Counted from the stretch's first letter, positions 19,404-57,696 are shown. The stretch is 64,000 nucleotides of DNA from an uncultured Candidatus Saccharibacteria bacterium (GCA_964357525.1 CAYHLH010000002.1:5287-69286); one strand, 5' to 3'. The notes: generated from the letters alone by a model not told the origin. Numbers and translations: made by a program.

Positions 19404-19471
19404 CCCAGTAGTAGAACCGCGACAGCCCTTGCCGGAAAATGGTCGCAGTTCACTACTGGGTTTGCTATACT
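19404..19471 (+). promoter_or_regulatory. Type-A hairpin (CCCAGTAGTAGAACCGCGACAG...TCGCAGTTCACTACTGGG) followed by extended -10 TTTGCTATACT; a second TTTGCTATAAT box at 19498-19508 lies 8 nt before the ATG
   Basis: Inverted repeat with termini CCCAGTAGT / ACTACTGGG, read directly. Promoter boxes TGCTATACT and TGCTATAAT. Confidence 0.55.
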
Positions 19472-19516
19472 TATTACATAAGGTCAGAGATCGAAAGATT
19501 TGCTATAATAAAAGCA

Positions 19517-22256: not shown

Positions 22257-22289
22257 GTCAGATAGATAATAGTCTGTAAAGGAAATTTG

Positions 22290-22430
22290 CCCAGTAGTAG
22301 CACTGCGACACATTTTGCGCCTCCAGTGGATTTTTCAGAAAACATCGGAATGGCGTTATAAAATAATATATTCAACTGTATCAATGACATGTTAGAGGCA
22401 GTCGCAGTCCACTACTGGGTTTGCTATACT
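22290..22430 (+). promoter_or_regulatory. Type-A hairpin (CCCAGTAGTAGCACTGCGACA...CAGTCGCAGTCCACTACTGGG, loop of about 90 nt) followed by TTTGCTATACT; ATG of the downstream gene lies 7 nt after the -10 hexamer
   Basis: Inverted-repeat termini identical to the 19404 copy. A leaderless arrangement is predicted. Confidence 0.55.
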
Positions 22431-22437
22431 TAATATA

Positions 22438-42053: not shown

Positions 42054-42060
42054 ATTATTC

Positions 42061-42226
42061 TGTGCCGACGGGAGGAAGCGGACAATCCACCTTTGGCGGA
42101 TTTTGGAACCCAGCGGTTCCAAGGCCTCCGCATTGGGAAAACTCCCGTTTCCCCACCGCCCCTTCCCGTCCGATTCCAGAGCGGCAAACACAAATGTTTT
42201 GAAAAACTCAAATCATTTGTATTTTG
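42061..42226 (-). repeat. tRNA-Met 3'-attached element (tRNA sense is minus): A/T hairpin, inverted T-loop copy, G-rich GGGGCGGTGGGG, GGAACC-GCTG-GGTTCC palindrome, direct repeat of the tRNA 3' end
   Basis: TGTGCCGACGGGAGGAAGCGGAC (42061-42083) versus the tRNA 3' end TGTGCCGACGGGAGGAATCGGAC (42225-42247). GTCCGATTCC at 42168-42177 is in inverted orientation. Confidence 0.55.
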
Positions 42227-42299: not shown

Positions 42300-42545
42300 T
42301 AGCGAAGGAAAAATGAAAATTTATTTTCATTTTTCCTGAGTAACGCCGGCGCAAGTCCCGCAAAGTCGGGACGCCACACCGGCAAGTGAGGAATACGCAC
42401 GTATTCCGAACGCCGCGGGCGCAAGCGTAGCGCTACGACGGCATCGCTTTTATTCTAGATAAAAAGAGGTTTTTCGCAAGATTTTTAAGTGTTGTAGTAA
42501 AAAAAAGAGGAGTATGCTTATAGCAAAGGTCAAAAATACAAGAGT

Positions 42546-44114
42546 ATGAAAAAATCAATTGTTTTAGTTTTTGCAGTTCTTTTTGTGTTTTGGTCGATTC
42601 CGTTAGTTTCGTACGCGAACTCTGAACAGCAAATTCCTTCAGGTGTTCTCGCACAACTCCTTGATGTGATTCAAGGATTGGTTGATAAAATGACTGAATT
42701 GCAACAATTGCCAAATAATACCGTTTCGGTTCCGTTAAGTACAGAAACTTCCCCTCGGATCGATTATTTTGTGAGTCCAGCCACGAATGATATCTGGCAA
42801 ATAGGTACAGTGCATAAAATAGAATGGATAATCGATCCACAGCCCGACGAAGTAAGCCTGCATCTTCTCAGGGATGGGTTTCCAAATTACGAAGTGCCAA
42901 TCACAGAAGGTTCAATTAAAAATACCGGCAGTTTTAATTGGACGGTTGGACCGCTAATCATGGATCTTGGAAAAGATTTTCGTGTTGAAGTAAGAAGCAA
43001 GGCTTACGGGCTTAGGAGCAATCTTTTCCAAATTACAAGAGTTACTCCTACACCAACCGTCGTTATCTCAAAAGACAGTTCGTCTCCGACTTCAAGGATT
43101 ACTCTTGTGGGGCAGAGTTCGGTTGAACTGCATAGAATCGGATTTGACGGGCGGGGGAGCGACCTCACGCTGAAAAAACTCACTCTGCAATTAGTGAGAG
43201 CGAACAAGAGGTTGTGGACATTAGGTTCGGTCTCCGCGAATTTCGGCCAGATTTATCTGTATGACGGTACAACGTTGGTCGGTTCCGGGGTTGTCAATCC
43301 CGCAAACGGGAAAGTTGCTTTTTCCGGTCTGAATGTGACGCTTCTCCAGGGGATGCGCAAAGTTCTTGGCGTGAAAGCGGACATTACCGGTTCCGGAACT
43401 CTGAAAGACAACAGCACGTTGGCGTTCTGGATCCCTTCGACGAGCGTAGACGAGATGGAAATTTACGGCCCGAACGGCTTATTGCCTTCGAGCAACATCA
43501 GGCTCCAGGATCGGGCGCTCTCGAATTTCAACCTGTATAAGAGCGTTGCTCCGAGCGTGATAAATGCGATGTCGAACGGCATCAAAACTCCGGGTGTGAA
43601 CCAGGAGATCGCGAAATTCACTATCACGAATGTCGCACCGCCAGGCGGGCGCTCGCTCAGGTTTGACAGATTTGAACCAACGGTTCTTCTAAGCGGATCA
43701 TGCACCGAATCGAGCACGGTGAGCAACTTCAAGTTGTATGACGGCGGTACTGTAATCGGTGTATCACCACTTTTGGCTGTTTTGAATTGTGGTTCCAGTC
43801 TGAAGCTCTATTACGATGCGAGCGATTCTGGCTGGGGAACACAGGAAATTCCTGCGGGAGGTTCAAAAACCTACACCATCAAGGCCGACACGACGAATAT
43901 CAGGAACGGCGTTCCGAGCGGGACATCGGTGTATCTTTCATCGAAAGTTGACGGTTTGAGGGGATACAACTCGAGGGATTTCACTGGTCCAGAGTATTAC
44001 TGGAATACGGGGGATGTGAAGTATAACTATACGACTGCGGGGATTATGGAAACCCACAAGAACAACAAGGCATCCGATTCATACTCGGTTCAGGGCGCGA
44101 CACTGACATACTAG
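42546..44114 (+). CDS. Secreted Ser/Thr-rich protein (AT-rich cassette); N-terminal 50 aa paralogous to the 48816 gene
   Basis: MKKSIVLVFAVLFVFWSIPLVSYANSE...GVLAQLLDVIQGLVDKMTELQQL versus MKKLVIVFTAGFLIFWSIPIRSFATAE...SMLAQLYEALQRVTEQISELTSE. Confidence 0.55.
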   Translation: MKKSIVLVFAVLFVFWSIPLVSYANSEQQIPSGVLAQLLDVIQGLVDKMTELQQLPNNTVSVPLSTETSPRIDYFVSPATNDIWQIGTVHKIEWIIDPQPDEVSLHLLRDGFPNYEVPITEGSIKNTGSFNWTVGPLIMDLGKDFRVEVRSKAYGLRSNLFQITRVTPTPTVVISKDSSSPTSRITLVGQSSVELHRIGFDGRGSDLTLKKLTLQLVRANKRLWTLGSVSANFGQIYLYDGTTLVGSGVVNPANGKVAFSGLNVTLLQGMRKVLGVKADITGSGTLKDNSTLAFWIPSTSVDEMEIYGPNGLLPSSNIRLQDRALSNFNLYKSVAPSVINAMSNGIKTPGVNQEIAKFTITNVAPPGGRSLRFDRFEPTVLLSGSCTESSTVSNFKLYDGGTVIGVSPLLAVLNCGSSLKLYYDASDSGWGTQEIPAGGSKTYTIKADTTNIRNGVPSGTSVYLSSKVDGLRGYNSRDFTGPEYYWNTGDVKYNYTTAGIMETHKNNKASDSYSVQGATLTY

Positions 44115-44192
44115 GAAAAACTTATTTTCCGCAAAACGAACTCTCTTAAGGGTTCGTTTTGCGTTTTTCCGGCTCTCGTATATACTAGCCCG

Positions 44193-45544: not shown

Positions 45545-45692
45545 CAAATTTTTGACGATAGTGTTTTTTTGTCTATACTGAAAAAGTTCGCCACAGTGAC
45601 GAAGTTGCCGCGGTGGCGTCCCGCCTTGGCGGGACTTCCCACGTCGGCGTTCGGGATTAATAATAACGAGGGTTCTTATCCATCCCTCACTT

Positions 45693-47057: not shown

Positions 47058-47129
47058 GGTGCCTGTAGTTCAATGGTAGAACGCCGCCCTGTGGAGGCGG
47101 TCACGGGAGTTCAATTCTCCTCAGGCACC
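47058..47129 (+). tRNA. tRNA-His (GTG) with encoded G-1
   Basis: G-GTGCCTG...anticodon loop CTGTGGA...T-arm GGGAGTTCAATTCTCC...CAGGCAC-C. Extra 5' G pairs with C73. Confidence 0.8.
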
Positions 47130-47131
47130 CA

Positions 47132-47165
47132 GGTCAAAAATCCCGCATTCAGTGCGGGGTTTTTG
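47132..47165. terminator. Terminator hairpin CAAAAATCCCGCA-TTCAGT-GCGGGGTTTTTG
   Basis: GC stem plus T-tract after tRNA-His. Confidence 0.5.
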
Positions 47166-47175
47166 TTGGGGCTGA

Positions 47176-47991
47176 TTGGAGGTTAGAACTTTTGCTGATA
47201 AGATAAGGATAATGGCAAAGAAGAAATTCCTTTTTTGGAGGAAAACATCAGGGAATTTGGTTGAAGATAATTTCTCTGATAAACCGGAATATCACGCATT
47301 TTTTGCGCGATGCAACAAAGAGTTTGAATTTCGCATCGCCAATGACCCAGAGGCATATCTTGGAAACGGGGTCTTTAAAAATGTTTTTTCCTACAGTAAT
47401 TGGAAATTCATCCACGCAGAGGAAACCTTCAAGCCGGATGTAGTGTACCAACGGAAGAAACTTACAGAAGAATCCTTTGATAAGGGTGTTCCTATAATCA
47501 ACACACCCGAATTCAAGAAATGGAGCCCTGATAAGCTGGGTCAATATGAATTGCTCAAAGAATATATGCCGAGGACGTTCCTTATTGAAAAGGAGCAGGA
47601 TTTAGACGCGCGATTGGCGGAGATTTCCACCCCAAAAGCGGTACTCAAACCAAGAAGAGGGGAAAAAGGGGAGAATGTGGTTATTTTTGAAAAAAGCGCG
47701 GTCCCTCGGTTGAATAACGAGATTTTAGAGAAAAGAGGCTATGTGTTACAGGAATATGCAGATACCAATGTTTCGGTTCCGAATGTTGTGGAAGGCGTTC
47801 ACGACATCAAGCTGATCACCATTGGCGACAAGGTCTTTGCCAATTTGAGGACCCCTGAAATAAATAAGGATTATTGCACCTTGGTTCTCACCCCGATACC
47901 ATCTCCGTCTGCGGCTACGAGCTACGGGGCAGGCTTCCTCTACGACGGCACCCAGCATCAGTTTTTAGGAGAATCCGTAATGAAAATTTGA
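47176..47991 (+). CDS. ATP-grasp domain protein (RimK/glutathione-synthetase-like), possibly 3'-truncated at a GC-rich junction
   Basis: ATP-grasp motifs (AVLKPRRGEKGENVVIF; YVLQEYAD; DIKLITIGDKVFA). AT-rich up to about 47860, then an abrupt GC-rich tail (…PIPSPSAATSYGAGFLYDGTQHQ) that coincides with the GC-rich repeat ending in CTACGACGGCACC. Confidence 0.5.
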   Translation: MEVRTFADKIRIMAKKKFLFWRKTSGNLVEDNFSDKPEYHAFFARCNKEFEFRIANDPEAYLGNGVFKNVFSYSNWKFIHAEETFKPDVVYQRKKLTEESFDKGVPIINTPEFKKWSPDKLGQYELLKEYMPRTFLIEKEQDLDARLAEISTPKAVLKPRRGEKGENVVIFEKSAVPRLNNEILEKRGYVLQEYADTNVSVPNVVEGVHDIKLITIGDKVFANLRTPEINKDYCTLVLTPIPSPSAATSYGAGFLYDGTQHQFLGESVMKI

Positions 47992-48392
47992 AGGAAATTT
48001 CGGATATTTTTCACGATGACGTCCTTCTCTTTTGGATTGCTCTCGGCAACCATTTTTGCGAAGCGGTAGAGTTCTTTATTGTTTACTTTGAGCCACCTCC
48101 CGTTTCTGTGGAGGAAGAGCAATAATGCCATGATGGCAATACGCTTGTTTCCGTTCTGAAACGGATGATTTTTTATCATCATGTAAAACATCATTGCCGC
48201 TTTTCCAATGAGGCCTTTGTAGAGGTTTTTACGGTCAAACGTTTGAAAAGGGGAATCCAAACATGTTTCGAGCACATGAGGAAAACGAGAACTGAAATCG
48301 GGAATCGGTTCGCCCCATTCCATGATTTTTTTCGCCATCTCGTAGGCGGTGTATTCAACTTCCCTTACGGTGATTTTCTTGAGCGGCGTCAT
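47958..48392 (-). CDS. doc: Doc (death-on-curing) family toxin, Fic fold
   Basis: Fic/Doc motif HPFQNGNKR. 144 aa. AT-rich. Confidence 0.7.
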   Translation of the reverse strand: MTPLKKITVREVEYTAYEMAKKIMEWGEPIPDFSSRFPHVLETCLDSPFQTFDRKNLYKGLIGKAAMMFYMMIKNHPFQNGNKRIAIMALLLFLHRNGRWLKVNNKELYRFAKMVAESNPKEKDVIVKNIRNFLQIFITDSPKN

Positions 48393-48661
48393 TCTTTTCC
48401 GAGCAATTTGAGCGTTTCGCCGTATTCTTTTATCCCTTTCCTTACCACTTGTTCTATCTCTTTTTTCTTTTCCTCACTCAAGAGCGTTCCGAGGGCTTTC
48501 AAAAGCTCTTTTTTTTCAATGACGAAGTTCCGCCCGATTTTCACCGCACGTATTTTCCCTGTTTTTATCTTGTTGAAAATAGTGACTCTGCTCACCCCGA
48601 GAATCTCCGCTACTTGGCTTGTTGAAAGGAGTTCTTGATCCATATGCAGGCATATTAACAT
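48389..48661 (-). CDS. HTH (excisionase/MerR-like) antitoxin partner of Doc
   Basis: LLSTSQVAEILGVSRVTIFNKIKTGKIRAVKIGRNFVI helix-turn-helix. Overlaps the doc start by 4 nt, upstream in the same operon. Confidence 0.6.
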   Translation of the reverse strand: MLICLHMDQELLSTSQVAEILGVSRVTIFNKIKTGKIRAVKIGRNFVIEKKELLKALGTLLSEEKKKEIEQVVRKGIKEYGETLKLLGKE

Positions 48662-48815
48662 ATGTTAATACCCGAAATCAACTCTTAACAAAATCCCAAT
48701 GTGGCGGGCTTCCTACTTCTTCGCTTTCGGCAGATTCGACAAGCTCACTGCAGGCAAGCTCAGTATTTACAATCTACGACGGCACCTATGTAAAATATAG
48801 GAGTATAATAAATTT

Positions 48816-50009
48816 ATGAAGAAATTGGTCATTGTATTTACAGCGGGTTTCCTTATTTTTTGGTCGATTCCTATTAGATCTTTTGCGACCGCAGAATTTT
48901 CGGTTTCTACAAGCATGCTGGCACAATTGTATGAAGCATTACAGCGGGTAACTGAACAAATTTCCGAGCTGACATCTGAAAATTCCTCTATTCAACCATC
49001 AAAAAATATTTTTCCAACGAATTCGCTAACATCGCCCGACAATATAATCATTCTTTCACCGACGGCTGCCGATATATTTTGGGTCGGTCAATCAAATAAA
49101 ATCGTATGGAAAGTTCCGCAAAGGATAAGCCTTAGTAAGGTTGAAGGATGTATGAAAATACCAAATCTTCACTGTGATCTGGTCGGCTATGTGGCGGGAC
49201 ACGGAGATAAATTCATATTTTGGACGCCTGACCCTCAAGCACTTTGGTTTCCTAATTCTGAAACTTGGATAAGAATCAGCGATGGTGATAACCAAAGCGA
49301 ATATGTTGACAGCGGCCACTTTCCGGTTTTAATGCCACACGGGAATATAGACGGGTTGGTGGTAGATTTCCCTGTCGTGGGCGGGACTTGGCGGCTCGGC
49401 AACATGGAACGAATACAATGGACGCCTGAAACCGAGGGGCCGTATACACATATCGCGCTTTATAAGCTCGGCCAATACATACGAACGATATATGCTGGTA
49501 AGTCTGAGGAGAACAAATTTGCTTGGAGCGTCCCTCGTGACATACCTGCCGGAAATAATTTCCAGGTGGAAGTCATAGAATTTATAAACGGTGGAAACGG
49601 TGTATCGGGATGGAGCGGTCTGTTTTCAGTTCTTAATGACAGAGCATCGTCCTCAACGTCATCGGTTTCGGTGGCTTTAGACGCTTATAATGAAGCGGCG
49701 GCGGGCGTGGCGAGATTCGGTCGAAGAGTAATTTTCCTGAAAAATGGAAATCAGTGGAAACACGGAACTGTTCAAACGATTATATGGGACAAATCGGTTT
49801 TTTCCGGGCGGTACGTAAAAATTACTCTTGTGCCAACAGATTCGAAATATAAAGACGTGGTTGTTTCCCGTCTTGCCCATAACGACGGTGACTTTAGGGT
49901 TACGGTCAAAAAGGAGTGGGGTTTGAATACAAAATATAAAGTCAAAATTGCCTCGCCGGATGTGAATTCGGTAGTTTCCGAAAGCGACGTAATTATGATA
50001 GAGCGTTGA
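48816..50009 (+). CDS. Secreted Ser-rich protein, paralog (N-terminus) of the 42546 gene; AT-rich cassette
   Basis: Signal peptide and conserved N-terminal 50 aa shared with 42546 (see that entry). Confidence 0.55.
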   Translation: MKKLVIVFTAGFLIFWSIPIRSFATAEFSVSTSMLAQLYEALQRVTEQISELTSENSSIQPSKNIFPTNSLTSPDNIIILSPTAADIFWVGQSNKIVWKVPQRISLSKVEGCMKIPNLHCDLVGYVAGHGDKFIFWTPDPQALWFPNSETWIRISDGDNQSEYVDSGHFPVLMPHGNIDGLVVDFPVVGGTWRLGNMERIQWTPETEGPYTHIALYKLGQYIRTIYAGKSEENKFAWSVPRDIPAGNNFQVEVIEFINGGNGVSGWSGLFSVLNDRASSSTSSVSVALDAYNEAAAGVARFGRRVIFLKNGNQWKHGTVQTIIWDKSVFSGRYVKITLVPTDSKYKDVVVSRLAHNDGDFRVTVKKEWGLNTKYKVKIASPDVNSVVSESDVIMIER

Positions 50010-50061
50010 ATAATCCATTAAGCCGCACCCCTGACTGTTTGTCGGTAGGCAGGTTCTCACC

Positions 50062-50156
50062 CTCCTTCGCTCACGCTTCGGACGGGCAGGCTTCTTCTCC
50101 GCCTCCGCTTCTCCTTCGCCAAGGCTTCGGACGGGCATGCTTCCTCTCCTCCTTCG
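50062..50156. repeat. GC-rich imperfect tandem repeat, about 47 bp x2 (CTTCGGACGGGCAKGCTTCYTCTCC...)
   Basis: CCTTCGCTCACGCTTCGGACGGGCAGGCTTCTTCTCCGCCTCCG / CTTCTCCTTCGCCAAGGCTTCGGACGGGCATGCTTCCTCTCCTCCTTCG. Related shorter copies at 47883-47952 and 48711-48786. Confidence 0.55.
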
Positions 50157-50270
50157 TCCCGCCTCGGCGGGACTACGGACGGACGGGCCCGCCTTGACTC
50201 GCCGTCAGGCGAGGCGGGTACGACGGCACCCGTTTTGCGTTGCGCGAGGAGCGCATGATATACTGCTGGT

Positions 50271-50525
50271 ATGATAGACGTAACGCGTCTCATAAAGGTC
50301 AGCGCCGCGTGGGTGTCACTGGTCTACGCCGTGTGCTTTGCCGGCGTCGCGATGTTTCCTAACATCCGTCCGGGATTCATGCGGTATGGGCTCCATATGG
50401 GAATCGATTTCGGACGGAACATTTTGACGTTTGGAACTTTCCTCTCCGGCCTCATTATCTGGAATGTCATTGCGCTTCTTGGGGTCTGGCTTTTTGCCGC
50501 TTTGTGGAACTCGATAAAAAAATGA
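50271..50525 (+). CDS. Small polytopic membrane protein, paralog A (84 aa)
   Basis: MIDVTRLIKVSAAWVSLVYAVCFAGVAMFPNIRPGFM...FGTFLSGLIIWNVIALLGVWLFAALWNSIKK. About 80 percent identical to the 57188 gene product. Confidence 0.5.
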   Translation: MIDVTRLIKVSAAWVSLVYAVCFAGVAMFPNIRPGFMRYGLHMGIDFGRNILTFGTFLSGLIIWNVIALLGVWLFAALWNSIKK

Positions 50526-50905
50526 ACCGTTTCTTTGTTTTTACGCTTCTAATCGCGTTTATCGGCGCGGCGTTCATATGGGCGCTTCCCATGGTTGGGG
50601 ATCACGGCGACGGGTGCCTCGTCGCGTCGCTCTTCGGGAAGGCGATATGCTGGGGGGCGCTTTCAGAAACCGCCGCCCGCCACATCGCCGCATATTGGAC
50701 ACTCACGAACATTCCCGCGATTTCCTTCTTCGCGGCCTTTCTGTTTTTCGCTTTTGCGTTTTTTACCTTTCTTTCTTTGTACGCGAGAGGGAGACCCCGT
50801 TTGTATGTCATTTCCCGCGCACCTTTGCGGGAGCGGATACCGGTTCCGAAACAATCTTTCTATTCGTGGTTCTCGCTCCACGAGCGGAGTCCCTCTTTTG
50901 CGTAG
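50522..50905 (+). CDS. Hypothetical membrane protein (low-complexity C-terminus; could be degraded)
   Basis: ATG overlaps the previous stop (ATGA-type overlap). Three hydrophobic segments, then an Arg/Pro-rich tail. Confidence 0.3.
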   Translation: MNRFFVFTLLIAFIGAAFIWALPMVGDHGDGCLVASLFGKAICWGALSETAARHIAAYWTLTNIPAISFFAAFLFFAFAFFTFLSLYARGRPRLYVISRAPLRERIPVPKQSFYSWFSLHERSPSFA

Positions 50906-51144
50906 CGACGGCGTTTTTGCGGGGCGAGTGGTCGCTCCTCCGCATGCGCCGTTTTTCGTCCCCTTGAAGGGGATTTTTGTCGCGTAGAGAAAATGAAGGA
51001 TATGAATCCCGATGATGAATAGATTGCTCGGTGAATTTCGGGATTACATATCAAAATAAATACCATGCAAAATAAAAAGAATACAAGCAATATACAGTCG
51101 CAATCGTCCGAAAACGCACGAGTGCGTTTTCGTTCATCATCGGG

Positions 51145-51651
51145 ATGAAACATAAAAACATCATTATCGGCATCGCTGCCGCGGTCATCGTGCTCGGAGC
51201 TCTCGTGTGGATCGCGAGGCCGGACGGTAAGAGTGCAAACACGGGCGTTCCTTCCGCCCCGGTCGTACCTGGTGCGCTCGCCGCGGAAGTGACAGACTTC
51301 GATTTCGGCACGATATCCATGGCGAAAGGGACCGTGAGCCGGACCTTTACGGTCAAAAACACCGGCGCGGGACCGGTCATCATAGGAAAAATGTACACGT
51401 CATGCATGTGCACGACGGCGTCCCTAACGCTCCGCGGGGAGCGGTTCGGCCCCTACGGCATGCCCGGCCACGGATTCGTCCCGACCATCAACAGGGAGAT
51501 CGGCGCGGGCGAGGAAGCCGCGGTGGAGATCGTCTTTGACCCGGCCGCGCACGGCCCCGCGGGCGTCGGGAGAATAGAGCGCGTCGTCATCATCGAGAAC
51601 GACGGCGGGGCGCCGCTCCAAGTCGGGTTCACGGCGAATGTAACTCCTTAA
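51145..51651 (+). CDS. DUF1573 domain protein, membrane-anchored
   Basis: DFDFGTISMAKGTVSRTFTVKNTGAGPVIIGK matches the DUF1573 signature (DFG.I..G......F...N.G..PL.I). Confidence 0.6.
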   Translation: MKHKNIIIGIAAAVIVLGALVWIARPDGKSANTGVPSAPVVPGALAAEVTDFDFGTISMAKGTVSRTFTVKNTGAGPVIIGKMYTSCMCTTASLTLRGERFGPYGMPGHGFVPTINREIGAGEEAAVEIVFDPAAHGPAGVGRIERVVIIENDGGAPLQVGFTANVTP

Positions 51652-52433
51652 TGAGCAGGAAATTAATCATCCTTATCGTCATCGCGGCCGTTGTCCTCGG
51701 TTCGGTGGTCCTTTTCGGTTCTGACGGGGCGGGAACGGCGGCGCTGTGGCGCATAAGCCGGGAGGGCACGTGGCTGCTCCCGCTTGTCGGCGTCGCCGCC
51801 CTCGTCGATTCCGTGAATCCGTGCGCGTTCTCCATCCTTCTCCTCACCATCGCATTCCTCCTCTCCATCGGCGCCGTTCGCGGAAGGATGCTCGCGATCG
51901 GCGCCTCCTACATCGCGGGACTTTTCTTCGTGTATCTTTTGATCGGCCTCGGGCTTCTGCAGGTGCTCCATCTCTTCGATACGCCGCATTTCATGGCGAA
52001 GGTGGGGGCGGCGCTTCTCATCGCGTTGGGCGCCCTGAATCTTGTGAATGCACTTTTCCCCAAGTTTCCGGTGAAATTCCGCATTCCTCACGGGGCGCAC
52101 AAAAAGCTCGCCTCGCTCATGGAAAAAGCGTCATTGCCGACGGCGTTCCTCCTCGGAGGGCTCGTAGGCCTCTGTGAGTTTCCGTGCACTGGGGGCCCGT
52201 ATCTCATGGTGGTGGGGCTCCTCCACGATTCCGCCTCGTACCTCACGGGGGTGGGATACCTCTTCCTCTACAACCTCATCTTTGTTTTGCCGCTCGTCGT
52301 CATGCTCCTCCTCGGGAGCGACGAGAAGCTTCTGGGAAAGGTGCAGGCGTGGAAGACGAAGGAAGCGAAGTCCATGCGTCTTTGGAGCGGGGTCGCGATG
52401 GTCGCGCTGGGAATCATCATTTTCTTCTTGTAA
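51651..52433 (+). CDS. ccdA: Cytochrome c biogenesis / thiol-disulfide transmembrane electron-transfer protein CcdA (DsbD-beta family)
   Basis: Conserved Cys in two TM-embedded motifs: DSVNPCAF and CEFPCTGGPY. Six TM helices. Confidence 0.75.
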   Translation: MSRKLIILIVIAAVVLGSVVLFGSDGAGTAALWRISREGTWLLPLVGVAALVDSVNPCAFSILLLTIAFLLSIGAVRGRMLAIGASYIAGLFFVYLLIGLGLLQVLHLFDTPHFMAKVGAALLIALGALNLVNALFPKFPVKFRIPHGAHKKLASLMEKASLPTAFLLGGLVGLCEFPCTGGPYLMVVGLLHDSASYLTGVGYLFLYNLIFVLPLVVMLLLGSDEKLLGKVQAWKTKEAKSMRLWSGVAMVALGIIIFFL

Positions 52434-52435
52434 AA

Positions 52436-53433
52436 TGGGAAACATTGAAAAACAATCAAATAGTCGAAGTAAGACGATAAATACAATGGAAGACAAAATA
52501 AAAGACGCAGAGGACGAAATGGAACCGCAAGAGAACGGAGCGTCGCTCGAGAACAAGCTGCTTCTGCCGGCGAGCATCGTCGCTGCGGCGGTCATTCTGG
52601 CGGGCACGTGGATGTATGTAACGGGGAAGATTGTCCTCCCCGAAAGAACGGGTGGCGCCTCGAGTTTGGCGCGGGATGCCGAACGTGAGGAAAAGGTCCT
52701 CCCGAGCGGGGGCGCGGAGCTCCCCGTCCGGTGGGGCGATCTCGGGGCGAAGATGATCGCTTCGGGCGTCATCGACGCGGAGCAGTTCGAGGCGCTCTAC
52801 GAATCCCGCGGCGGGATGGATGGCGAAGCAAAAGCGCTCCTTTACGGAAAGGACAACGGGAACCTCAAAATCACGCGCGAGAACGCCGGAACGGTCCTAA
52901 ATCTCCTCTGGGCATTCGGCCTCGGAAACAAGAACGACATCTTGGAAAAGGGACCGATGGCGGACCCTGAATTCGGGGGCGCGGGGGTGTTTGCCTCGAC
53001 AGGCGGATGGACCTTGGCGGAGGGGGACGCGATGAACCATTACTCGATGCATAAATTTGTAGCGCTCACGACGGACCAGCAGGCGCTCGTAGAGCGCGTC
53101 GCGCAGGGCGTGTACCGCCCTTGTTGCGGGAACTCGACCTACTTCCCCGATTGCAATCACGGCATGGCGATGCTGGGGCTCCTCGAGCTCATGGCGAGCC
53201 AAGGGGTTTTGGAGGACGAGATGTACCGCGTCGCGCTTGCCGTGAATTCCTACTGGTTCCCAGATACCTACCTCACCGTCGCGAAGTATCTCGAACAATC
53301 GGGCGTCGCGTGGAAAGACGCCGACCCGAGGCAGGTCCTCGGATACGATTTTTCGAGCGCCGCGGGGTACAGCAACGTTCTCTCCAAAACCCAACCGCAG
53401 GGGTTCCAGGGGGGCGGCGGGTGCGGGGTATAG
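52436..53433 (+). CDS. Membrane-anchored hypothetical protein with a CCGNSTYFPDCNHG cysteine motif
   Basis: N-terminal TM (LLLPASIVAAAVILAGTWMYV), soluble domain with a clustered Cys/His motif. The track N-terminal extension from 52174 overlaps ccdA and is rejected. Confidence 0.45.
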
Positions 53434-53474
53434 ATATGGGGAATTAGGGGTTAGGAAATAGGAATTGGAACGCA

Positions 53475-53900
53475 ATGAAAAAAAATATACTGGTGATCTC
53501 GGTAATCGCCCTCGCCGTCGTCGGTATCGGCGTATATCTCTCCGCGCGTTCCCCGTCGCCGGAGGGGGAGAGTAAGGTCATTTCCATGAACGGCCTCCAT
53601 TGGCACCCGCACCTTATGATCTATGTGAATGGCACGCCGCAGGGGATTCCCGCAGGCATTGGGCTCGGTGCTGTGCACAACCCCGTGCACACCCATGACG
53701 CGGACGGCATCATCCACCTCGAATTCAGCGGGGCGGTGCGCGGACGCGACATCGCGCTCGGGAGATTCTTCGAGAATTGGGGGAGGGACATGCATTCGTT
53801 CGGCGGAAACATGAGAATGACGGTGAACGGGGCGGAGAACTCTGAGTATGAGCGCTACATGATGCACGACGGGGACGAGATCGAGATCAGGTATGAATAG
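53475..53900 (+). CDS. Secreted His-rich hypothetical protein (possible metal-binding)
   Basis: Signal peptide. HWHPHL...HNPVHTHDADGIIHLEF histidine clusters. Lies in the copper island. Confidence 0.45.
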   Translation: MKKNILVISVIALAVVGIGVYLSARSPSPEGESKVISMNGLHWHPHLMIYVNGTPQGIPAGIGLGAVHNPVHTHDADGIIHLEFSGAVRGRDIALGRFFENWGRDMHSFGGNMRMTVNGAENSEYERYMMHDGDEIEIRYE

Positions 53901-54318
53901 GCCGATCCTGTACGGATTTGCGGGTATGGTCGGACTCCTCGGTCTTTATTTTGGAATTCTCACACTTGTTTCAGGGTGGGGTTTTGCCGAAAGCCAATTT
54001 GTCGTTTTTTGGTACTTCATTGTGAGCCTCGCCGTCGGTTTCGGCATCCAGGTCGGACTGTATGCGCATTTGCGGGATCTTATGAAGGAAATGCACGGGG
54101 AGGGCAAGGTCCTGGGCGTGACCGGCACGACCTCAACTGCGGCGATGGTTTCCTGTTGCACCCATTACCTCGCTAACTTACTCCCGATTCTTGGCGCGGT
54201 CGGAATTGTAACCTTTGTGGCGCAGTATCAGATACAGTTGTTTTGGGTCGGTCTGTTATTTAACATCGGTGGCATTTTTTATATAACTAATAAAGTTTTA
54301 AAGTATAAAAAAGCATGA
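53893..54318 (+). CDS. Hypothetical polytopic membrane protein
   Basis: Four predicted TM helices. Overlaps the previous stop. Confidence 0.4.
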   Translation: MNRPILYGFAGMVGLLGLYFGILTLVSGWGFAESQFVVFWYFIVSLAVGFGIQVGLYAHLRDLMKEMHGEGKVLGVTGTTSTAAMVSCCTHYLANLLPILGAVGIVTFVAQYQIQLFWVGLLFNIGGIFYITNKVLKYKKA

Positions 54319-54785
54319 AATATCTAAAATTTACACTTATCATTTTGGTCGCGATATTCCTTCTGTATTACTACTTCAGTGTTTCCGATGCTGGAAAACA
54401 GCAGCTGAAAGGTAGTCGGCAAATAGAATCAGTAAGTAGCTCCGAGCAAAAACAATGGGAGACAAAAACCGATGAGCAGTCGCCGGTAACTGTTGCGGTA
54501 ACTCCGATTGAATTTGGCAAAGATGCGGGCACATGGAAATTCGACATCGTTTTTGATACACATTCCGGAAATTTAGATGAGAACCCTCTTGAGATAGCAC
54601 TTCTTCTGGACGATAAGAGCAATACCTATCAACCTCTTGCGTGGGAAGGACCGGGACCCGGCGGACACCACCGCGAGGGAGTGTTGATATTCAATCCAAT
54701 ACGCCCCGCGCCGCCTTACGTGGAATTAAAAGTTAAGGATGTCGGCGGCATTTCGGAGCGCTCGTTCAAGTGGAGTGTAGAATAA
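54315..54785 (+). CDS. Secreted hypothetical protein
   Basis: Signal anchor MKYLKFTLIILVAIFLLYYYF, 156 aa. Confidence 0.4.
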   Translation: MKYLKFTLIILVAIFLLYYYFSVSDAGKQQLKGSRQIESVSSSEQKQWETKTDEQSPVTVAVTPIEFGKDAGTWKFDIVFDTHSGNLDENPLEIALLLDDKSNTYQPLAWEGPGPGGHHREGVLIFNPIRPAPPYVELKVKDVGGISERSFKWSVE

Positions 54786-54789
54786 ATAT

Positions 54790-57162
54790 ATGAAGCAATA
54801 TCATCATTCAAAAAATCAGCATCCAATCCACGCTTCCCCCGCGCATTGCTCATGCGGTAAAGAGTGTTTGTGTTGCAAGGGAGAAAAGCTTGCTGTCAAT
54901 TGCGGTTGCGGCATGGAGGCAAAGCAGTATGAGTACAATATGGGTTCGAGCTGTTGTCACAGCGAACACGCCCACAAAGAAGAAATGAAGTTAGAGCCGA
55001 AAGGAAACAAAAACATTGTCTATACCTGTCCCATGCATCCGCAGGTCAAGAAGAACGAGCCCGGCCGGTGTCCGGCGTGTGGTATGGAGCTTATTCCTAA
55101 AGAGAAAGCAAAAAGCCACGCAGGTCATGACATGCAGAAGATGAGTCATGCCGATCACGAAGCGGCGATGACCAATCCGCAAATTGCTAAAGCGATGGAG
55201 AGAGATATGCTCCGCAGATTTTTGGTTTCCCTTATTCTTTCCATTCCCATTTTCCTCTATTCGCCGGTAGGTATTAACTTTTTCAAGCTCAACCTCCCAA
55301 CGCCGATACCGGTGAATTGGCTGCTCCTCATTCTCACTACGCCGATTGTTTTCTGGGCCGGATCGATCTTCATCACGGGCACCTACTATTCTCTCAAGGC
55401 CCGCAAGCTTAACATGGCGGTTCTGATCGCGACGGGCGTCTTGGCGGCGTATCTCTTCAGTGTTCTTCTCACTTTCCTGAGGCCAGAATCGGAAACTTTT
55501 TACGAAGCGGCGGCCCTCCTCGTCACTTTCGTGCTCTTTGGTCACTGGATGGAAATGAAGTCGCGCAGGGGTACATCCGATGCCTTGCGCGCCCTTTTTG
55601 ACCTCGTGCCGCCGAAGGCAAACGTTATCCGGGACGGCAGGGAGATGAGCATTCCGAGCGCGGAAATAGTTCACGACGATATCGTGGTTTTAAGACCCGG
55701 TGACAAGGTGCCGGTGGACGGGGAAATTACGGAAGGTGAGACCTCCATTGACGAGTCCCTCGTGACCGGGGAGTCCATACCGGTTTCGAAAACCATAGGC
55801 GCGAAAGTCGTTGGCGGTTCGGTAAATTTAACTGGAGCAGTTCGGTTCAAAGCCACGCAGGTTGGTTCGGAGACGGTACTCGCGCAGATCATCAAGATGG
55901 TTGAGACGGCCCAGAACTCCAAAGCTCCGGGCCAGCGCATTGCTGACAAGGCCGCGGGGGTGCTCGTAGTCGTCGCCATCGGTTCAGGCACCGCGGCGTT
56001 TCTCGGTTGGTATTTTTTGGCGGGGATCGGCCTCCTCGCCGCGCTCACCTTTGCGATCTCAACTGTGGTGATCGCGTGTCCTGACGCCTTGGGACTCGCG
56101 ACGCCTACTGCGGTTGCGGTAGGCACCGGCATCGGGGCGAAACACAATATCCTCATCAAGGACGCCGCGACGCTTGAGAACACCTCGCGCCTGAACGCGA
56201 TTGTGCTTGACAAGACCGGTACTCTCACGGAGGGGAAGCCGAAAGTAACTGAAGTTATTTCGGTTAATCCGTACAATAAAAATGATGTGCTCGCGTATGC
56301 TTCTGCCGTAGAACAAAGTTCAAATCATCCCATTAGCGCCGCTATTATTGAGGAGGCGAAGAAGCAAAGAGTGTTTGCGGAAAAAAAGATAGAAAAATTC
56401 TTGAGTCTAGGCGGACAGGGGGTGCGCGCGGTCGCGGACGGGAAAGCGGTCATTGTCGGTACTGAACACCTTATGCAGCAGAGCAATGTTGATATTTCGC
56501 CATTGAGACAAGAAATTGACCGGTTGCTTGAAACTGGAAACACCTTGAGCATTGTCGCCGTTGACGGAAGAATCGCCGGCGCGATCGGCGTTGCCGATAC
56601 GGTGCGCGTTTCCGCAAAGCGTACGGTTCAGAAGTTACATGAGCTGGGGCTCGAGGTCGCGATGATCACCGGGGATCACGAGCAGGTGGCGGGCGCGATT
56701 GCCCGTGATCTCGGTATTGACCGCTATTTCGCGCAGGTGCTCCCCGAGGACAAGGCGAAATATGTGAAAAAACTTCAGGACGAGGGGAAATTCGTCGCGA
56801 TGGTGGGGGACGGGATTAACGATGCGCCGGCGCTCGCGCAATCGGACATCGGAATCGCAATCGGCGCGGGCACCGATGTGGCGATTGAGACGGGAAACAT
56901 CGTGCTTATGAAATCGGACCCCTACGATATCGTCGCCGCACTCCGTTTGAGCAAGGCGACCGTGGTAAAGATGAAGCAAAATCTATTCTGGGCGGCGATT
57001 TACAATCTTCTCGCGATTCCCGTTGCCGCGGGTGTTTTCTACAATTCGTTCGGCTGGTCGCTCCGCCCTGAGATCTCCGCGCTCCTCATGTCGGCGTCGT
57101 CAATCATCGTGGCGACGAACGCCGTGCTCCTAAAGCGGGTCGAATCAAAACTCAAAGCGTAA
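54790..57162 (+). CDS. copA: Copper-translocating P1B-type ATPase
   Basis: N-terminal metal-binding region YTCPMHPQV...CPACGM, TM CPC motif (IACPDALGLATP), phosphorylation site DKTGTLT, and GDGINDAP hinge. 790 aa. Confidence 0.9.
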   Translation: MKQYHHSKNQHPIHASPAHCSCGKECLCCKGEKLAVNCGCGMEAKQYEYNMGSSCCHSEHAHKEEMKLEPKGNKNIVYTCPMHPQVKKNEPGRCPACGMELIPKEKAKSHAGHDMQKMSHADHEAAMTNPQIAKAMERDMLRRFLVSLILSIPIFLYSPVGINFFKLNLPTPIPVNWLLLILTTPIVFWAGSIFITGTYYSLKARKLNMAVLIATGVLAAYLFSVLLTFLRPESETFYEAAALLVTFVLFGHWMEMKSRRGTSDALRALFDLVPPKANVIRDGREMSIPSAEIVHDDIVVLRPGDKVPVDGEITEGETSIDESLVTGESIPVSKTIGAKVVGGSVNLTGAVRFKATQVGSETVLAQIIKMVETAQNSKAPGQRIADKAAGVLVVVAIGSGTAAFLGWYFLAGIGLLAALTFAISTVVIACPDALGLATPTAVAVGTGIGAKHNILIKDAATLENTSRLNAIVLDKTGTLTEGKPKVTEVISVNPYNKNDVLAYASAVEQSSNHPISAAIIEEAKKQRVFAEKKIEKFLSLGGQGVRAVADGKAVIVGTEHLMQQSNVDISPLRQEIDRLLETGNTLSIVAVDGRIAGAIGVADTVRVSAKRTVQKLHELGLEVAMITGDHEQVAGAIARDLGIDRYFAQVLPEDKAKYVKKLQDEGKFVAMVGDGINDAPALAQSDIGIAIGAGTDVAIETGNIVLMKSDPYDIVAALRLSKATVVKMKQNLFWAAIYNLLAIPVAAGVFYNSFGWSLRPEISALLMSASSIIVATNAVLLKRVESKLKA

Positions 57163-57187
57163 AGGTCGAAAATCTAAAAAATAAACC

Positions 57188-57445
57188 ATGATAGCAACCA
57201 AACGCCTGCTCAAAGTTACCGCCGCGTGGATAAGCGTCGTGTACGCGGTTTGTTTTGCCGGTGTGGCGCTTTTCCCGAACATCCGTCCGGGATTCATGCG
57301 CTCCGCCTTGCATGTGGTGGGGGTGGATCTGGGCATTGATGTGCTCACCTTCGGCACGTTCCTGTCTGGCCTCATCATCTGGAACGTCATCGCGCTCCTC
57401 GCGGTGTGGCTCTTTGCGGCGCTCTACAACGGCATAAAGAAATAA
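57188..57445 (+). CDS. Small polytopic membrane protein, paralog B (85 aa)
   Basis: MIATKRLLKVTAAWISVVYAVCFAGVALFPNIRPGFM...FGTFLSGLIIWNVIALLAVWLFAALYNGIKK. Confidence 0.5.
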   Translation: MIATKRLLKVTAAWISVVYAVCFAGVALFPNIRPGFMRSALHVVGVDLGIDVLTFGTFLSGLIIWNVIALLAVWLFAALYNGIKK

Positions 57446-57474
57446 GAAGCGGATACAATTTGTATTTCCCCGCT

Positions 57475-57688
57475 CGCTCGGAAATGTAGGTATAACCACC
57501 CCCATTTCCTCGCTCGCCAGGTTATGGCGGAATGAAATTCCTTGGTAACCTAGTTCGCTCGGAAATGTAGGTATAACCACCCCCATTTCCTCGCTCGCCA
57601 GGTTATGGCGGAATGAAATTCCTTGGTAACCTAGTTCGCTCGGAAATGTAGGTATAACCACCCCCATTTCCTCGCTCGCCAGGTTATA
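57475..57688. repeat. 81-bp tandem repeat, 2.6 copies, copies 1 and 2 identical
   Basis: Unit CGCTCGGAAATGTAGGTATAACCACCCCCATTTCCTCGCTCGCCAGGTTATGGCGGAATGAAATTCCTTGGTAACCTAGTT at 57475, 57556 and 57637 (partial). The partial third copy ends in AGGTTATAATG, creating a TATAAT box 9 nt before the GTG start of the 57697 gene. Confidence 0.85.
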
Positions 57689-57696
57689 ATGAGTTT

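What the first reader, a model, noticed from the sequence alone, without database searches (positions are those of the whole stretch)
47883..50236. Array of AT-rich gene cassettes separated by a GC-rich repeat family ending in the core CTACGACGGCACC
Three AT-rich units (ATP-grasp gene 47176-~47860; Doc/antitoxin pair 47958-48661; secreted protein 48816-50009) are separated by GC-rich segments that share sequence. GGTTCTCACCC occurs at 47884 and 50053. GGCRGGCTTCYTMYT occurs at 47929, 48713, 50086 and 50131. Each segment ends with (C)TACGACGGCACC (47939-47951, 48774-48786, 50219-50230). A fourth copy, CTACGACGGCATC (42433-42445), precedes the paralogous AT-rich gene at 42546. The ATP-grasp reading frame runs out of its AT-rich sequence into the GC-rich repeat, as if truncated at the junction. 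A TA module as cargo and repeated junction cores is the logic of integron-like or tandem site-specific-integration arrays, although the cores do not match the integron GTTRRRY consensus.
Basis: seen in the sequence. Interest (0 to 1): 0.65.

Follow-up and report, generated by a model that had tools for sequence, protein, structure and literature searches.

The report
Foreign gene modules stacked behind tRNA-His
Behind the tRNA-His gene of an uncultured groundwater bacterium, three small foreign-looking gene modules sit in a row, each closed by a short GC-rich repeat ending in the same 12-13 letters; this looks like serial site-specific insertion at a tRNA gene, a known kind of event, and is not an integron.

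Summary
TACGACGGCAYC occurs four times exactly, always on the + strand. Each copy sits at a GC-to-AT drop (42434, 47941, 48775, 50219). R2, R3 and R4 share ordered modules. The ATP-grasp gene is cut exactly where R2 begins.

New context:
- The array starts at tRNA-His, whose last bases (GGCACCC-AG) equal the end of the core. GGCACCCAG occurs only twice in 64 kb, and the two copies bracket the first unit.
- In the nearest available relative, tRNA-His is followed directly by a vanY gene that lies 10.5 kb downstream here.
- The closest homologue of the toxin-antitoxin module, from an unrelated metagenome, is bracketed at the same two positions by a different perfect 24-nt direct repeat.

The window holds no recombinase. 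The repeats lack attC structure and the GTTRRRY core. The repeat family was not found at any other locus.

Best reading (about 0.45): tandem accretion of small, integrase-less, partly decayed integrative modules at the 3' end of tRNA-His, with the GC-rich segments as element-side att arms. This resembles the ssrA islands of Dehalococcoides and streptococcal CIMEs. Integron membership fails. The mechanism is inferred, not shown.

The parts
47059..47132 (+). tRNA-His(GTG). Its last bases, GGCACCC plus the flanking AG (47124-47132), equal the end of the repeat core. Proposed attB/attL side of the array.
   Evidence: AGGCACCC is also the tRNA-His 3' end in five relatives (L006, L008, L011, L012, L017)
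47133..47880 (+). Unit 1 cargo: tRNA terminator hairpin plus a truncated YheC/D-type ATP-grasp gene (start 47212). Homology to 303-310-aa relatives ends at 47880.
   Evidence: GC3 0.48
47881..47953 (+). R2, a GC-rich repeat element: module A GGTTCTCACCC (47883-47893), module B GGCAGGCTTCCTCT (47928), core CTACGACGGCACC(C) (47940-47953).
47958..48699 (-). Unit 2 cargo: self-contained type II toxin-antitoxin module. It holds Fic/Doc toxin 47958-48392, HTH_17 antitoxin 48389-48644, and its own promoter with the palindrome TTAACATATGTTAA (48655-48668).
   Evidence: Pfam; about 75% nt identity to L106 over exactly 47960-48697, background outside
48700..48787 (+). R3, a GC-rich repeat element: module B GGCGGGCTTCCTACT (48703), core CTACGACGGCACC (48774-48786). 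It has no module A.
48788..50051 (+). Unit 3 cargo: secreted 397-aa protein with Kre9/KNH-like Ig domain (48816-50009). It is an orphan, with no homologue found among 5.8 billion proteins.
   Evidence: GC3 0.42
50052..50231 (+). R4, the longest repeat element: module A (50052-50062), two 49-nt tandem units each holding CTTCGGACGGGCAKGCTTC (50076, 50125), palindrome GTCCCGCCTCGGCGGGAC (50156-50173), a second hairpin, and core GTACGACGGCACCC (50218-50231).
   Evidence: (D19)
42335..42446 (+). R1, an outlying fourth copy: hairpins plus core CTACGACGGCATC (42433-42445), next to the 5' end of tRNA-Met(-). It is followed by about 650 nt of AT-rich DNA that forms the promoter and first ~180 codons of the chimeric secreted protein gene 42546-44114.
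   Evidence: GC3 jump near 43100
45618..45635 (.). Third copy of the palindrome GTCCCGCCTTGGCGGGAC (module C), in the tRNA-Arg/tRNA-Phe spacer. It shows that some R modules also occur outside the array.
50232..57696 (+). Rest of the block that is absent between tRNA-His and vanY in the nearest relative. It holds DUF5676, membrane and thiol-redox proteins, a CopA-type ATPase, a second DUF5676 and an 81-nt tandem repeat. Its composition is native-like, and whether it belongs to the array is uncertain.

Best explanation
**Proposal.** This is a tandem accretion array at the 3' end of tRNA-His. Small circular DNA modules were inserted one after another by a site-specific recombinase acting at a short crossover sequence (GGCACCC). 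That sequence is shared by the tRNA-His 3' end and by the modules' own attachment sites.

**How the structure follows.** Each insertion leaves the module's element-side att arm plus the core at its far end. The arm is the GC-rich R segment, with the repeated CTWCGGACGGGCA-type motifs as candidate recombinase-binding sites. This gives: tRNA-His | ATP-grasp'-R2 | TA-R3 | Sec397-R4 | old flank. The units are 823, 834 and 1444 nt long.

**State of the units.** None carries an integrase now, so they are cis-mobilizable or dead remnants. The recombinase must be, or have been, supplied in trans. Unit 1 has decayed, since its ATP-grasp gene is cut at R2. R1 would be a secondary-site or relocated copy.

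**Shown:** the repeats, their positions, the boundaries, the foreign composition, the truncation, and the absence of the block in a relative.

**Inferred:** the recombination itself, the crossover site, the order of events and the role of the R bodies.
For: 1. There are four exact, co-oriented cores where fewer than one is expected. Each lies at a GC-to-AT drop in the top 0.05-4% of positions.
2. The array abuts tRNA-His. GGCACCCAG occurs only twice in 64 kb on both strands: at the tRNA-His 3' end and at the R2 core, bracketing unit 1. AGGCACCC is the conserved tRNA-His 3' end in five relatives (L006, L008, L011, L012, L017).
3. In the nearest relative (L004, 65-69% aa identity), tRNA-His is followed 15 nt later by the vanY gene that lies 10.5 kb downstream here.
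4. The units are self-contained and compositionally foreign (GC3 0.42-0.53 against 0.60-0.78). They include a TA module with its own promoter and operator, and an orphan secreted protein.
5. The nearest TA homologue (80% aa, about 75% nt) is on L106, from an unrelated sample. Homology covers exactly promoter to stop. The module is bracketed by a perfect 24-nt direct repeat 855 nt apart, against 834 nt core-to-core here. The layout is the same: repeat, 76-87-nt GC-rich spacer, promoter, antitoxin, toxin, 5-7 nt, repeat.
6. ATP-grasp homology ends within 1-3 nt of the first base of R2.
7. R2 and R4 share both ends and the same module order.
8. There is precedent. [quoted passage not shown] The CIME and accretion model is reviewed in PMC5704250.
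Against: - No tyrosine or serine recombinase, excisionase or reverse transcriptase was found. This covers the main ORFs of the 64-kb window and about 2 kb beyond its ends.
- Identity with the tRNA is only 7-9 nt. The R bodies show no further tRNA-His homology, and tRNA-His scores no better than other tRNAs.
- The match to the tRNA end was noticed post hoc.
- R1 is 4.7 kb upstream, is not at a tRNA 3' end, and has no partner repeat.
- The units are very small (0.8-1.4 kb) for integrative elements.
- The only population variant found (L002) breaks 18 nt from the core rather than at it, and it has coverage 2.
- Other Doc homologues in longer contigs have no flanking repeats.
- The closest relative is distant, so 'insertion' against 'loss in the relative' is not resolved.
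- The core resembles the internal sub-repeat of R4, so it could have arisen by local duplication.
Confidence: 0.45

Rival explanations
1. A dedicated cassette platform of a new type, integron-like in logic. The R elements would be lineage-specific cassette recombination sites, functionally like attC. Single genes are captured and stacked by a recombinase encoded elsewhere in the genome, and the tRNA-His adjacency is incidental.
For: - Single-gene units are each followed by a variable-length (70-190 nt) repeat with conserved ends.
- The TA cassette is reversed and has its own promoter, as in chromosomal integrons (integron comparison from own knowledge).
- The related TA module in L106 sits between copies of a different, lineage-specific repeat. 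This parallels species-specific attC families.
- R1 lies away from tRNA-His.
Against: - There is no integrase, attI or Pc-like arrangement in 64 kb.
- There is no inverse-core/core symmetry.
- R2 and R3 fold no better than shuffles (z +1.25 and +0.75).
- The core is not GTTRRRY.
- There are only three or four sites.
- The A+B module pair occurs at no other locus in the metagenome collection, which includes this aquifer's assemblies.
- The ATP-grasp 'cassette' is truncated at the repeat, which clean cassette capture does not predict.
Confidence: 0.15
2. Local mosaic intergenic repeats, like BIME or neisserial NIME. They arose by duplication in this tRNA-rich variable region. They serve at most as homology patches for ordinary recombination after DNA uptake. 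No site-specific recombinase is involved.
For: - The R elements are mosaics of short modules (A, B, palindrome C, core) in varying combinations. R4 contains 49-nt tandem units, and the core resembles the internal sub-repeat.
- Palindrome C also occurs in the tRNA-Arg/tRNA-Phe spacer.
- The window encodes type IV pilus genes: PilM by Pfam, and PilB/PilT/PilC-like ORFs assigned by eye from their translations. It is my own knowledge, not tested here, that such pili are often linked to DNA uptake.
- No recombinase was found.
Against: - The family is not dispersed. There are no copies in the other 56 kb, none in 80 related loci, and the A+B pair is at this locus only across all metagenome contigs.
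- All copies are co-oriented, and each ends in the identical word exactly at a composition boundary.
- There is a 9-nt identity with the tRNA-His end.
- The direct-repeat bracketing of the TA module recurs with a different repeat in L106.
Confidence: 0.22
3. Cis-regulatory or protein-binding sites. The core and the sub-repeats would be operators or insulators for a transcription factor that controls the secreted-protein paralogues and the DUF5676 operon.
For: - Three of four cores lie 30-100 nt upstream of + strand genes, two of which are paralogues.
- The direct sub-repeats look like protein-binding arrays.
Against: - The distance and register to promoters differ. By my own reading of the sequence, the core lies in the putative spacer at R3, just upstream of a -35 at R4, and about 100 nt from the start codon at R1. 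The promoter scan itself reported no + strand promoter at R3 or R4.
- The R2 core faces the 3' end of the convergent Doc gene, with no gene to regulate.
- This reading explains neither the ATP-grasp truncation at R2 nor the L106 architecture.
Confidence: 0.08
4. Chance similarity among unrelated GC-rich intergenic stretches.
For: Single 11-mers such as GGTTCTCACCC recur by chance at this window size. With one mismatch, 3 were found against 1.0 expected.
Against: - There are four exact 12-mers against about 0.5 expected even with a mismatch allowed.
- Modules A, B and the core are collinear in both R2 and R4.
- All cores lie at composition boundaries.
Confidence: 0.02

Closest known systems
Tandem ssrA genomic islands of Dehalococcoides (PMC3146451)
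   Same: - Low-GC islands are stacked downstream of a small RNA gene.
- Each is bounded by a direct repeat of that gene's 3' end.
- An element-derived conserved motif lies immediately upstream of each repeat and does not align with the RNA gene.
- Some islands lack integration genes and are regarded as cis-mobilizable.
   Different: - There, the repeat is 20 bp of ssrA, and many islands carry a serine-recombinase integration module and are several kb long.
- Here, the identity with tRNA-His is 7-9 nt, the units are 0.8-1.4 kb with one gene or gene pair, and no recombinase is present in 64 kb.
CIMEs and site-specific accretion at tRNA or other target genes in streptococci (reviewed in PMC5704250; Pavlovic 2004 and Bellanger 2011 cited there)
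   Same: Decayed elements that keep their att sites but have lost integrase and transfer genes, stacked in tandem by integration of newcomers into an att site.
   Different: Those tandems involve ICE- or IME-sized elements and demonstrated integrases. Nothing here shows activity or a conjugative partner.
Chromosomal integron cassette arrays and CALINs (own knowledge)
   Same: Co-oriented single-gene units, each followed by a variable-length repeat with conserved ends. TA modules with their own promoter occur as cargo. Repeat families are lineage-specific.
   Different: There is no IntI, attI or Pc. There is no R''/L''-L'/R' hairpin. The core is CTACGACGGCACC, not GTTRRRY. The array is anchored at a tRNA gene.
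Mosaic intergenic repeats: BIME/REP of enterobacteria, NIME/dRS3 of Neisseria (own knowledge)
   Same: Intergenic GC-rich mosaics built from a few short modules, including palindromes. In Neisseria they are associated with variable gene islets.
   Different: Those families have tens to hundreds of dispersed copies in both orientations. This one has 3-4 co-oriented copies within 8 kb and none elsewhere in the data searched.
Type II toxin-antitoxin module, Fic/Doc toxin with HTH_17 antitoxin
   Same: Pfam Fic/DOC (E 5.8e-11) and HTH_17 (E 6.9e-11). The genes overlap by 4 nt and a palindromic operator sits in the promoter. There are more than 1500 homologues, the named ones among the best 120 listed being from Patescibacteria.
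   Different: Nothing unusual in the module itself. It is cargo.

Membership tests
Integron (complete) | IntI-type tyrosine recombinase gene with adjacent attI and cassette promoter | tested here: not met
   Pfam scans of 30 ORFs across the window found no Phage_integrase, Resolvase or other recombinase domain. Remaining ORFs were inspected by translation only. About 2 kb beyond each window end also shows none.
Integron / CALIN | attC sites: an imperfect inverted repeat (R''-L''...L'-R') that folds as a bulged hairpin, with R' = GTTRRRY at the cassette boundary | tested here: not met
   The core is CTACGACGGCACC. R2 and R3 fold no better than shuffles (z +1.25 and +0.75). R4 and R1 have internal hairpins only. 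No inverse core was seen at the left ends when the sequence was inspected by eye.
Integron / cassette array | Unit-wise presence or absence of cassettes between strains | tested here: inconclusive
   Seven of the eight distinct contigs of the same population are colinear. One coverage-2 contig (L002) has a different sequence upstream of the Sec397 gene, but it breaks 18 nt from the core.
tRNA-linked integrative element / genomic island (tandem accretion) | Located directly downstream of a tRNA (or tmRNA) gene 3' end | tested here: met
   tRNA-His is at 47059-47130 and unit 1 starts at 47133. The block is absent at tRNA-His in relative L004.
tRNA-linked integrative element / genomic island (tandem accretion) | Direct repeats of the tRNA 3' end at the distal boundary of each unit | tested here: inconclusive
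   Only GGCACCC(AG), 7-9 nt, is shared. The 16-nt tRNA end has no other copy with 3 or fewer mismatches. The R bodies show no extended tRNA-His homology.
tRNA-linked integrative element / genomic island (tandem accretion) | Integrase (tyrosine or serine) in at least one unit or nearby | tested here: not met
   The units would have to be CIME-like remnants served in trans.
tRNA-linked integrative element / genomic island (tandem accretion) | Excision to a circle and empty-site junctions | not testable with these tools
   Needs reads, PCR or closely related genomes.
REP/BIME-type dispersed extragenic repeats | Many dispersed extragenic copies in both orientations, palindromic units, often a RAYT transposase | tested here: not met
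   Copies occur only at 42.3-50.2 kb, all on the + strand. There are none in 80 related loci. The A+B pair occurs only at this locus in the metagenome collection. No Y1 transposase hit was found.
MITE | Terminal inverted repeats and target-site duplication | tested here: not met
   The left end GGTTCTCACCC and the right end ...GGCACCC are not inverted copies, and the flanks of R2 and R4 share no duplication (sequence inspected by eye; no dedicated inverted-repeat scan of the window was run).
Xer/dif modules (pdif, IMEX) | 28-bp XerC-spacer-XerD sites flanking the modules | tested here: not met
   Conservation is limited to 12-13 nt with no dyad symmetry. The cumulative GC skew shows no terminus here.
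Type II TA, Fic/Doc with HTH antitoxin | Fic/DOC domain toxin preceded by a small DNA-binding antitoxin in one operon | tested here: met
   Pfam PF02661 and PF12728, with overlapping genes. The family is widespread, with named members in Patescibacteria.

The most novel reading that the evidence does not exclude
Ultra-small groundwater bacteria (Patescibacteria) may possess a previously undescribed gene-cassette system. In it, single genes are captured and stacked behind lineage-specific, directional GC-rich recombination sites by a recombinase unrelated to, or at least not linked like, integron integrases. The window array (core CTACGACGGCACC) and the L106 locus (24-nt repeat TATTATTCTTGCGAACCAGATTGT), which carry related TA cargo, would be two instances.
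Probability: 0.15. Interest if true: 0.75.

Novelty: new variant of a known kind. Interest (0 to 1): 0.42.

Why it matters
**If the reading is right.** It would show that tRNA-targeted site-specific accretion operates in Patescibacteria, whose small genomes are usually regarded as poor in mobile elements. It would do so in an unusually miniaturised form: single-gene units of about 1 kb with GC-rich att arms and no resident integrase.

**What it would provide.**
- A defined, testable recombination site (GGCACCC at the tRNA-His end).
- A way to search such genomes for strain-variable surface proteins and TA modules.

**If the rival cassette-platform reading is right.** It would be a new gene-capture system.

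**If neither is right.** It is a small, local repeat family of modest interest.

Tried and rejected
- **Integron or attC.** Rejected on sequence, fold and the lack of IntI.
- **Known RNA family.** Rfam gave only tRNAs at gathering threshold, and nothing at the R elements at E up to 5.
- **Intrinsic terminators.** The scan found none at the R elements. Clean terminators exist elsewhere, at 44130-44163 and 47142-47158.
- **R bodies as decayed tRNA-His 3' halves.** Local alignments looked collinear, but p was about 0.1. tRNA-His scored no better than other tRNAs once the shared heptamer was removed.
- **Duplicate of the tRNA-His 3' end at the far side of the 10.5-kb block.** None was found.
- **Dispersed repeat family.**
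  - The core is absent from 80 related loci.
  - The A+B pattern gave 12 stretches in the metagenome collection. Only this locus is real among those checked. The two other hits from the same aquifer (L094, L098) lie in coding sequence and lack R structure. The eight hits from unrelated samples were judged chance only from the absence of the core.
  - The L106 repeat is absent from viral contigs.
- **Recent duplication as the source of the shared core at R1 and R3.** Rejected, because the genes are only 32% identical over 110 aa and the upstream DNA is otherwise unalignable.
- **Flanking repeats around other Doc homologues and around full-length ATP-grasp genes.** None was found.
- **Origin of the alternative 130-nt flank of L002.** It matches nothing held. 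The peptide was too short for the protein search.
- **The source contig.** The 72-kb NCBI source contig and the rest of the genome could not be fetched.
- **DNA-uptake-sequence idea.** The reverse complement of the core shares TGCCGTC with the neisserial DUS. The idea was rejected because there are only four clustered, co-oriented copies.
- **Literature.** Searches found no description of such arrays in Patescibacteria.


Full report
**Source and setting.** The window comes from an uncultured Patescibacteria (Paceibacteria-like) population in the Hainich aquifer. Contigs from well H41 (0.1 um fraction) are 99.8-100% identical to it. The best relative among 185,579 species genomes shares only 65-69% amino-acid identity in pheS, ligA and gatA. 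The finding lies in a tRNA-rich stretch: tRNA-Asp, Met, Met, Arg, Phe and His between 41.5 and 47.1 kb.

**Check of the observation.**
- TACGACGGCAYC has four exact copies, all on the + strand, at 42434, 47941, 48775 and 50219. Only 0.52 matches are expected even with one mismatch allowed. The four one-mismatch hits lie inside ordinary genes without a composition change.
- GGTTCTCACCC is at 47883 and 50052.
- The GGCRGGCTTC-type word is at 47928, 48703 and 50085, with a variant at 50134.
- Each core sits at a GC-to-AT drop that ranks in the top 0.05%, 4%, 1.7% and 2.7% of all window positions.
- The intervening genes have third-position GC of 0.42-0.53, against 0.60-0.78 for the flanking housekeeping genes.

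**Anatomy of the repeats.**
- R2 (47881-47953, 73 nt) and R4 (50052-50231, 180 nt) begin with the same 11-mer and end with the same TACGACGGCACCC. Both hold the GGCAGGCTTC word in between.
- R4 is longer because it holds two 49-nt tandem units, an 18-bp palindrome (GTCCCGCCTCGGCGGGAC) and a second hairpin.
- R3 (48700-48787) has the B word and the core, but not the left-end 11-mer.
- R1 (42335-42446) has hairpins and the core with one change (GGCATC).
- The palindrome recurs in the tRNA-Arg/tRNA-Phe spacer and, with two changes, in R1.
- The core resembles the sub-repeat CTWCGGACGGGCA inside R4. The elements therefore look like arrays of one short, possibly protein-binding, motif. This is an inference.
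- R2 and R3 do not fold better than shuffled sequence.
- No Rfam family matches, and no terminator-like site is predicted at the elements.

**The cargo.**
- Unit 1 holds a YheC/D-type ATP-grasp gene. Relatives are 303-310 aa. Homology stops after ...YCT at 47880, 1-3 nt before R2, so about 80 residues are missing and the reading frame runs on into the repeat. Full-length relatives sit in ordinary chromosomal contexts without flanking repeats.
- Unit 2 is a complete Fic/Doc-HTH_17 toxin-antitoxin operon on the minus strand, with its own promoter and a palindromic operator.
- Unit 3 encodes a secreted protein with a Kre9/KNH-like Ig domain. It has no detectable homologue among 5.8 billion proteins.
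- The gene after R1 (42546-44114) is related to unit 3 only in its first 110 residues (32% identity). It is itself a composition chimera: GC3 is about 0.35 for the first ~180 codons and about 0.65 after.

**Surroundings.**
- Unit 1 begins right after tRNA-His. The last bases of that tRNA gene plus two flanking bases, GGCACCCAG (47124-47132), are identical to the end of the R2 core plus its flank (47947-47955).
- This 9-mer occurs nowhere else in the window on either strand.
- R4 shares GGCACCC and R3 shares GGCACC.
- AGGCACCC is the conserved tRNA-His 3' end in five relatives.
- Measured from heptamer to heptamer, the units are 823, 834 and 1444 nt.
- In the nearest relative (L004), the order ligA-gatC-gatA...pheS...dedA-arfB-tRNA-His is kept, and tRNA-His is followed 15 nt later by a VanY-type peptidase gene. 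Its orthologue in the window lies at 57697, 10.5 kb downstream.
- That 10.5 kb holds the three units and then a native-composition block with DUF5676, thiol-redox and CopA genes.
- L004 is distant, so this shows a variable site, not the direction of the change.

**A second instance of the toxin-antitoxin module.**
- The closest Doc homologue (80% aa) lies on a 997-nt contig from an unrelated run, L106.
- Nucleotide identity to the window is about 75% from the TA promoter to the Doc stop codon (window 48697 to 47960). It falls to background on both sides.
- In L106 the module is bracketed by a perfect 24-nt direct repeat, TATTATTCTTGCGAACCAGATTGT, at 95-118 and 950-973.
- The layout matches the window: repeat, 76-87 nt of lineage-specific GC-rich spacer with a hairpin, promoter, antitoxin, toxin, 5-7 nt, repeat. 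The spacing is 855 nt against 834 nt.
- The repeats differ in sequence between the two genomes, and the sequences beyond the repeats differ within L106. So this is not an assembly artefact.
- More distant Doc homologues in longer contigs lack such repeats.

**Recombinase search.** Pfam scans of 30 ORFs across the window, and reading of the remaining ORFs by translation, gave no tyrosine or serine recombinase, transposase or reverse transcriptase. Contigs that reach about 0.8 and 1.5 kb beyond the window ends add none. A LAGLIDADG and a GIY-YIG ORF are present, but they are not linked to the repeats.

**Distribution of the repeat family.**
- The core is absent from 80 related loci, about 1.2 Mb.
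- The pattern GGTTCTCACCC-N15-45-GGCAGGCTTC was scanned over all metagenome contigs, which include the Hainich assemblies. It found this locus, with both R2 and R4 matching, and eleven other stretches. The two from the same aquifer are coding sequence without R structure. Three are further records of this locus; none of the other 95 loci held at that point, the eight other hits among them, carries the core.
- The family is therefore local and not a dispersed REP- or MITE-like repeat. The limits are low-coverage assemblies and one pattern.

**Population variation.**
- Seven of the eight distinct contigs of the population are colinear with the window.
- The exception is L002 (coverage 2). It is identical to 48805-50063, but its first 130 nt hold a consensus promoter and the start of an unrelated ORF, and match nothing available.
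- Its breakpoint lies 18 nt to the right of the R3 core.
- It may be a second context of the gene or a chimera. I do not count it as support.

**Interpretation.**
- The most economical reading is serial site-specific insertion at the tRNA-His 3' end. It accounts for co-oriented identical cores at composition boundaries, anchoring at tRNA-His with a shared terminal heptamer, related GC-rich segments only on the upstream side of each core, self-contained foreign cargo, a gene cut at a repeat boundary, absence in a relative, and the L106 parallel.
- In that reading, GGCACCC is the crossover region. The conserved CTACGAC and the R bodies are element-side att arms. The units are now integrase-less remnants.
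- This is the pattern described for tandem ssrA islands in Dehalococcoides. There, a motif that does not align with ssrA sits just upstream of each ssrA-derived repeat, and some islands lack integration genes (PMC3146451). It is also the pattern of CIME accretion (PMC5704250).
- It differs in the very short identity with the tRNA, the tiny unit size, the missing recombinase, and the outlying R1.
- I give it about 0.45.

**Rival readings.**
- A dedicated cassette platform with new attC-like sites: 0.15.
- Local mosaic repeats acting only through homologous recombination: 0.22.
- Regulatory sites: 0.08.
- Chance: 0.02.

**Verdict.** 'Integron' is not supported. Interest is moderate. Islands at tRNA genes are well known, so the novelty lies in the miniaturised, integrase-less form in a Patescibacteria genome and in the possible second instance.

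Noticed in passing
window 57474-57716: An 81-nt unit is repeated 2.6 times in tandem (two perfect copies plus 52 nt). The last copy runs into the ribosome-binding region and GTG start of the vanY-type peptidase gene (57697). It lies at the far edge of the block that is absent in relative L004.
   Followed up: partly
window 50271-50525 and 57189-57446: Two DUF5676 paralogues (first 130 nt 70% identical) bracket a 7-kb native-composition block. The block holds DUF1573, a DsbD/CcdA-like protein, small membrane proteins and a CopA-type P-type ATPase. The second copy has an odd codon-position GC pattern (GC2 0.74).
   Followed up: partly
window 42056-42225: A 28-nt copy (93%) of the 3' end of tRNA-Met(-) lies 164 nt downstream of that tRNA. 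Between them, a 43-nt element (42127-42169) is 88-93% identical in relatives L017, L024 and L011, which share only about 55-65% protein identity. It may be an unannotated structured or tRNA-like RNA, or an att remnant. Rfam gave no match.
   Followed up: partly
window 45546-45692: The tRNA-Arg/tRNA-Phe spacer holds a copy of the first ~13 nt of tRNA-Phe (GTTGCCGCGGTGGC, about 45607-45620) 81 nt upstream of the real 5' end. It also holds the palindrome GTCCCGCCTTGGCGGGAC. In five relatives, 1.5-3.6 kb of genes lie between these two tRNAs.
   Followed up: partly
window 40823-41515: A free-standing, AT-rich (GC3 0.37) LAGLIDADG endonuclease ORF ends inside the start of tRNA-Asp (41501). Homologues (45-51%) lie near the same tRNA/pheS cluster in L011 (directly beside tRNA-Asp) and L013.
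   Followed up: no
window 42546-44114: The secreted protein gene is a composition chimera. GC3 is about 0.35 up to about 43090 and about 0.65 after. Only the AT-rich N-terminal part (signal peptide, coiled segment, Kre9/KNH-like domain) is related to the 48816 gene.
   Followed up: yes
L002 1-130 (ENA ERZ1292619 contig, coverage 2): An alternative sequence is joined to the Sec397 gene at window position 48804/48805. It holds a consensus TTGACA-17-CATAAT promoter and the start of a divergent ORF, and matches nothing in the window or in the fetched loci.
   Followed up: partly
window 15503-15582, 19399-19476, 22285-22435: Two short conserved elements (27 and 35 nt, 74-94% identical) recur in the same order upstream of three large genes without Pfam matches (15719, 19439, 22438). 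They look like a shared leader or regulatory region of a paralogous gene family.
   Followed up: no
window 13844-15283 (-) and 18373-19275 (-): Two proteins carry a Por_Secre_tail (type IX secretion C-terminal sorting) domain. To my knowledge that domain is typical of Bacteroidota, so it is unexpected in a Patescibacteria genome. Both genes have below-average GC (0.44-0.48).
   Followed up: no
window 12895-12921, 13435-13461, 13631-13657: A 27-nt perfect palindrome-containing repeat (CCACGCGGTCTGATTAATCAGACCGCG) occurs three times around a second YerC/TrpR-like gene fragment (13132-13215). That fragment is 76% identical to the one at 1695-1778.
   Followed up: no
L108 3017-3076 and 3795-3854; 3090-3106 and 3988-4004: In another Patescibacteria contig with a Doc module, a 60-nt promoter-bearing repeat (TTGACA...TATAAT, 77% identical) and an exact 17-mer recur 778-898 nt apart just downstream of the TA genes. 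This is a different small repeat system next to a TA module.
   Followed up: no
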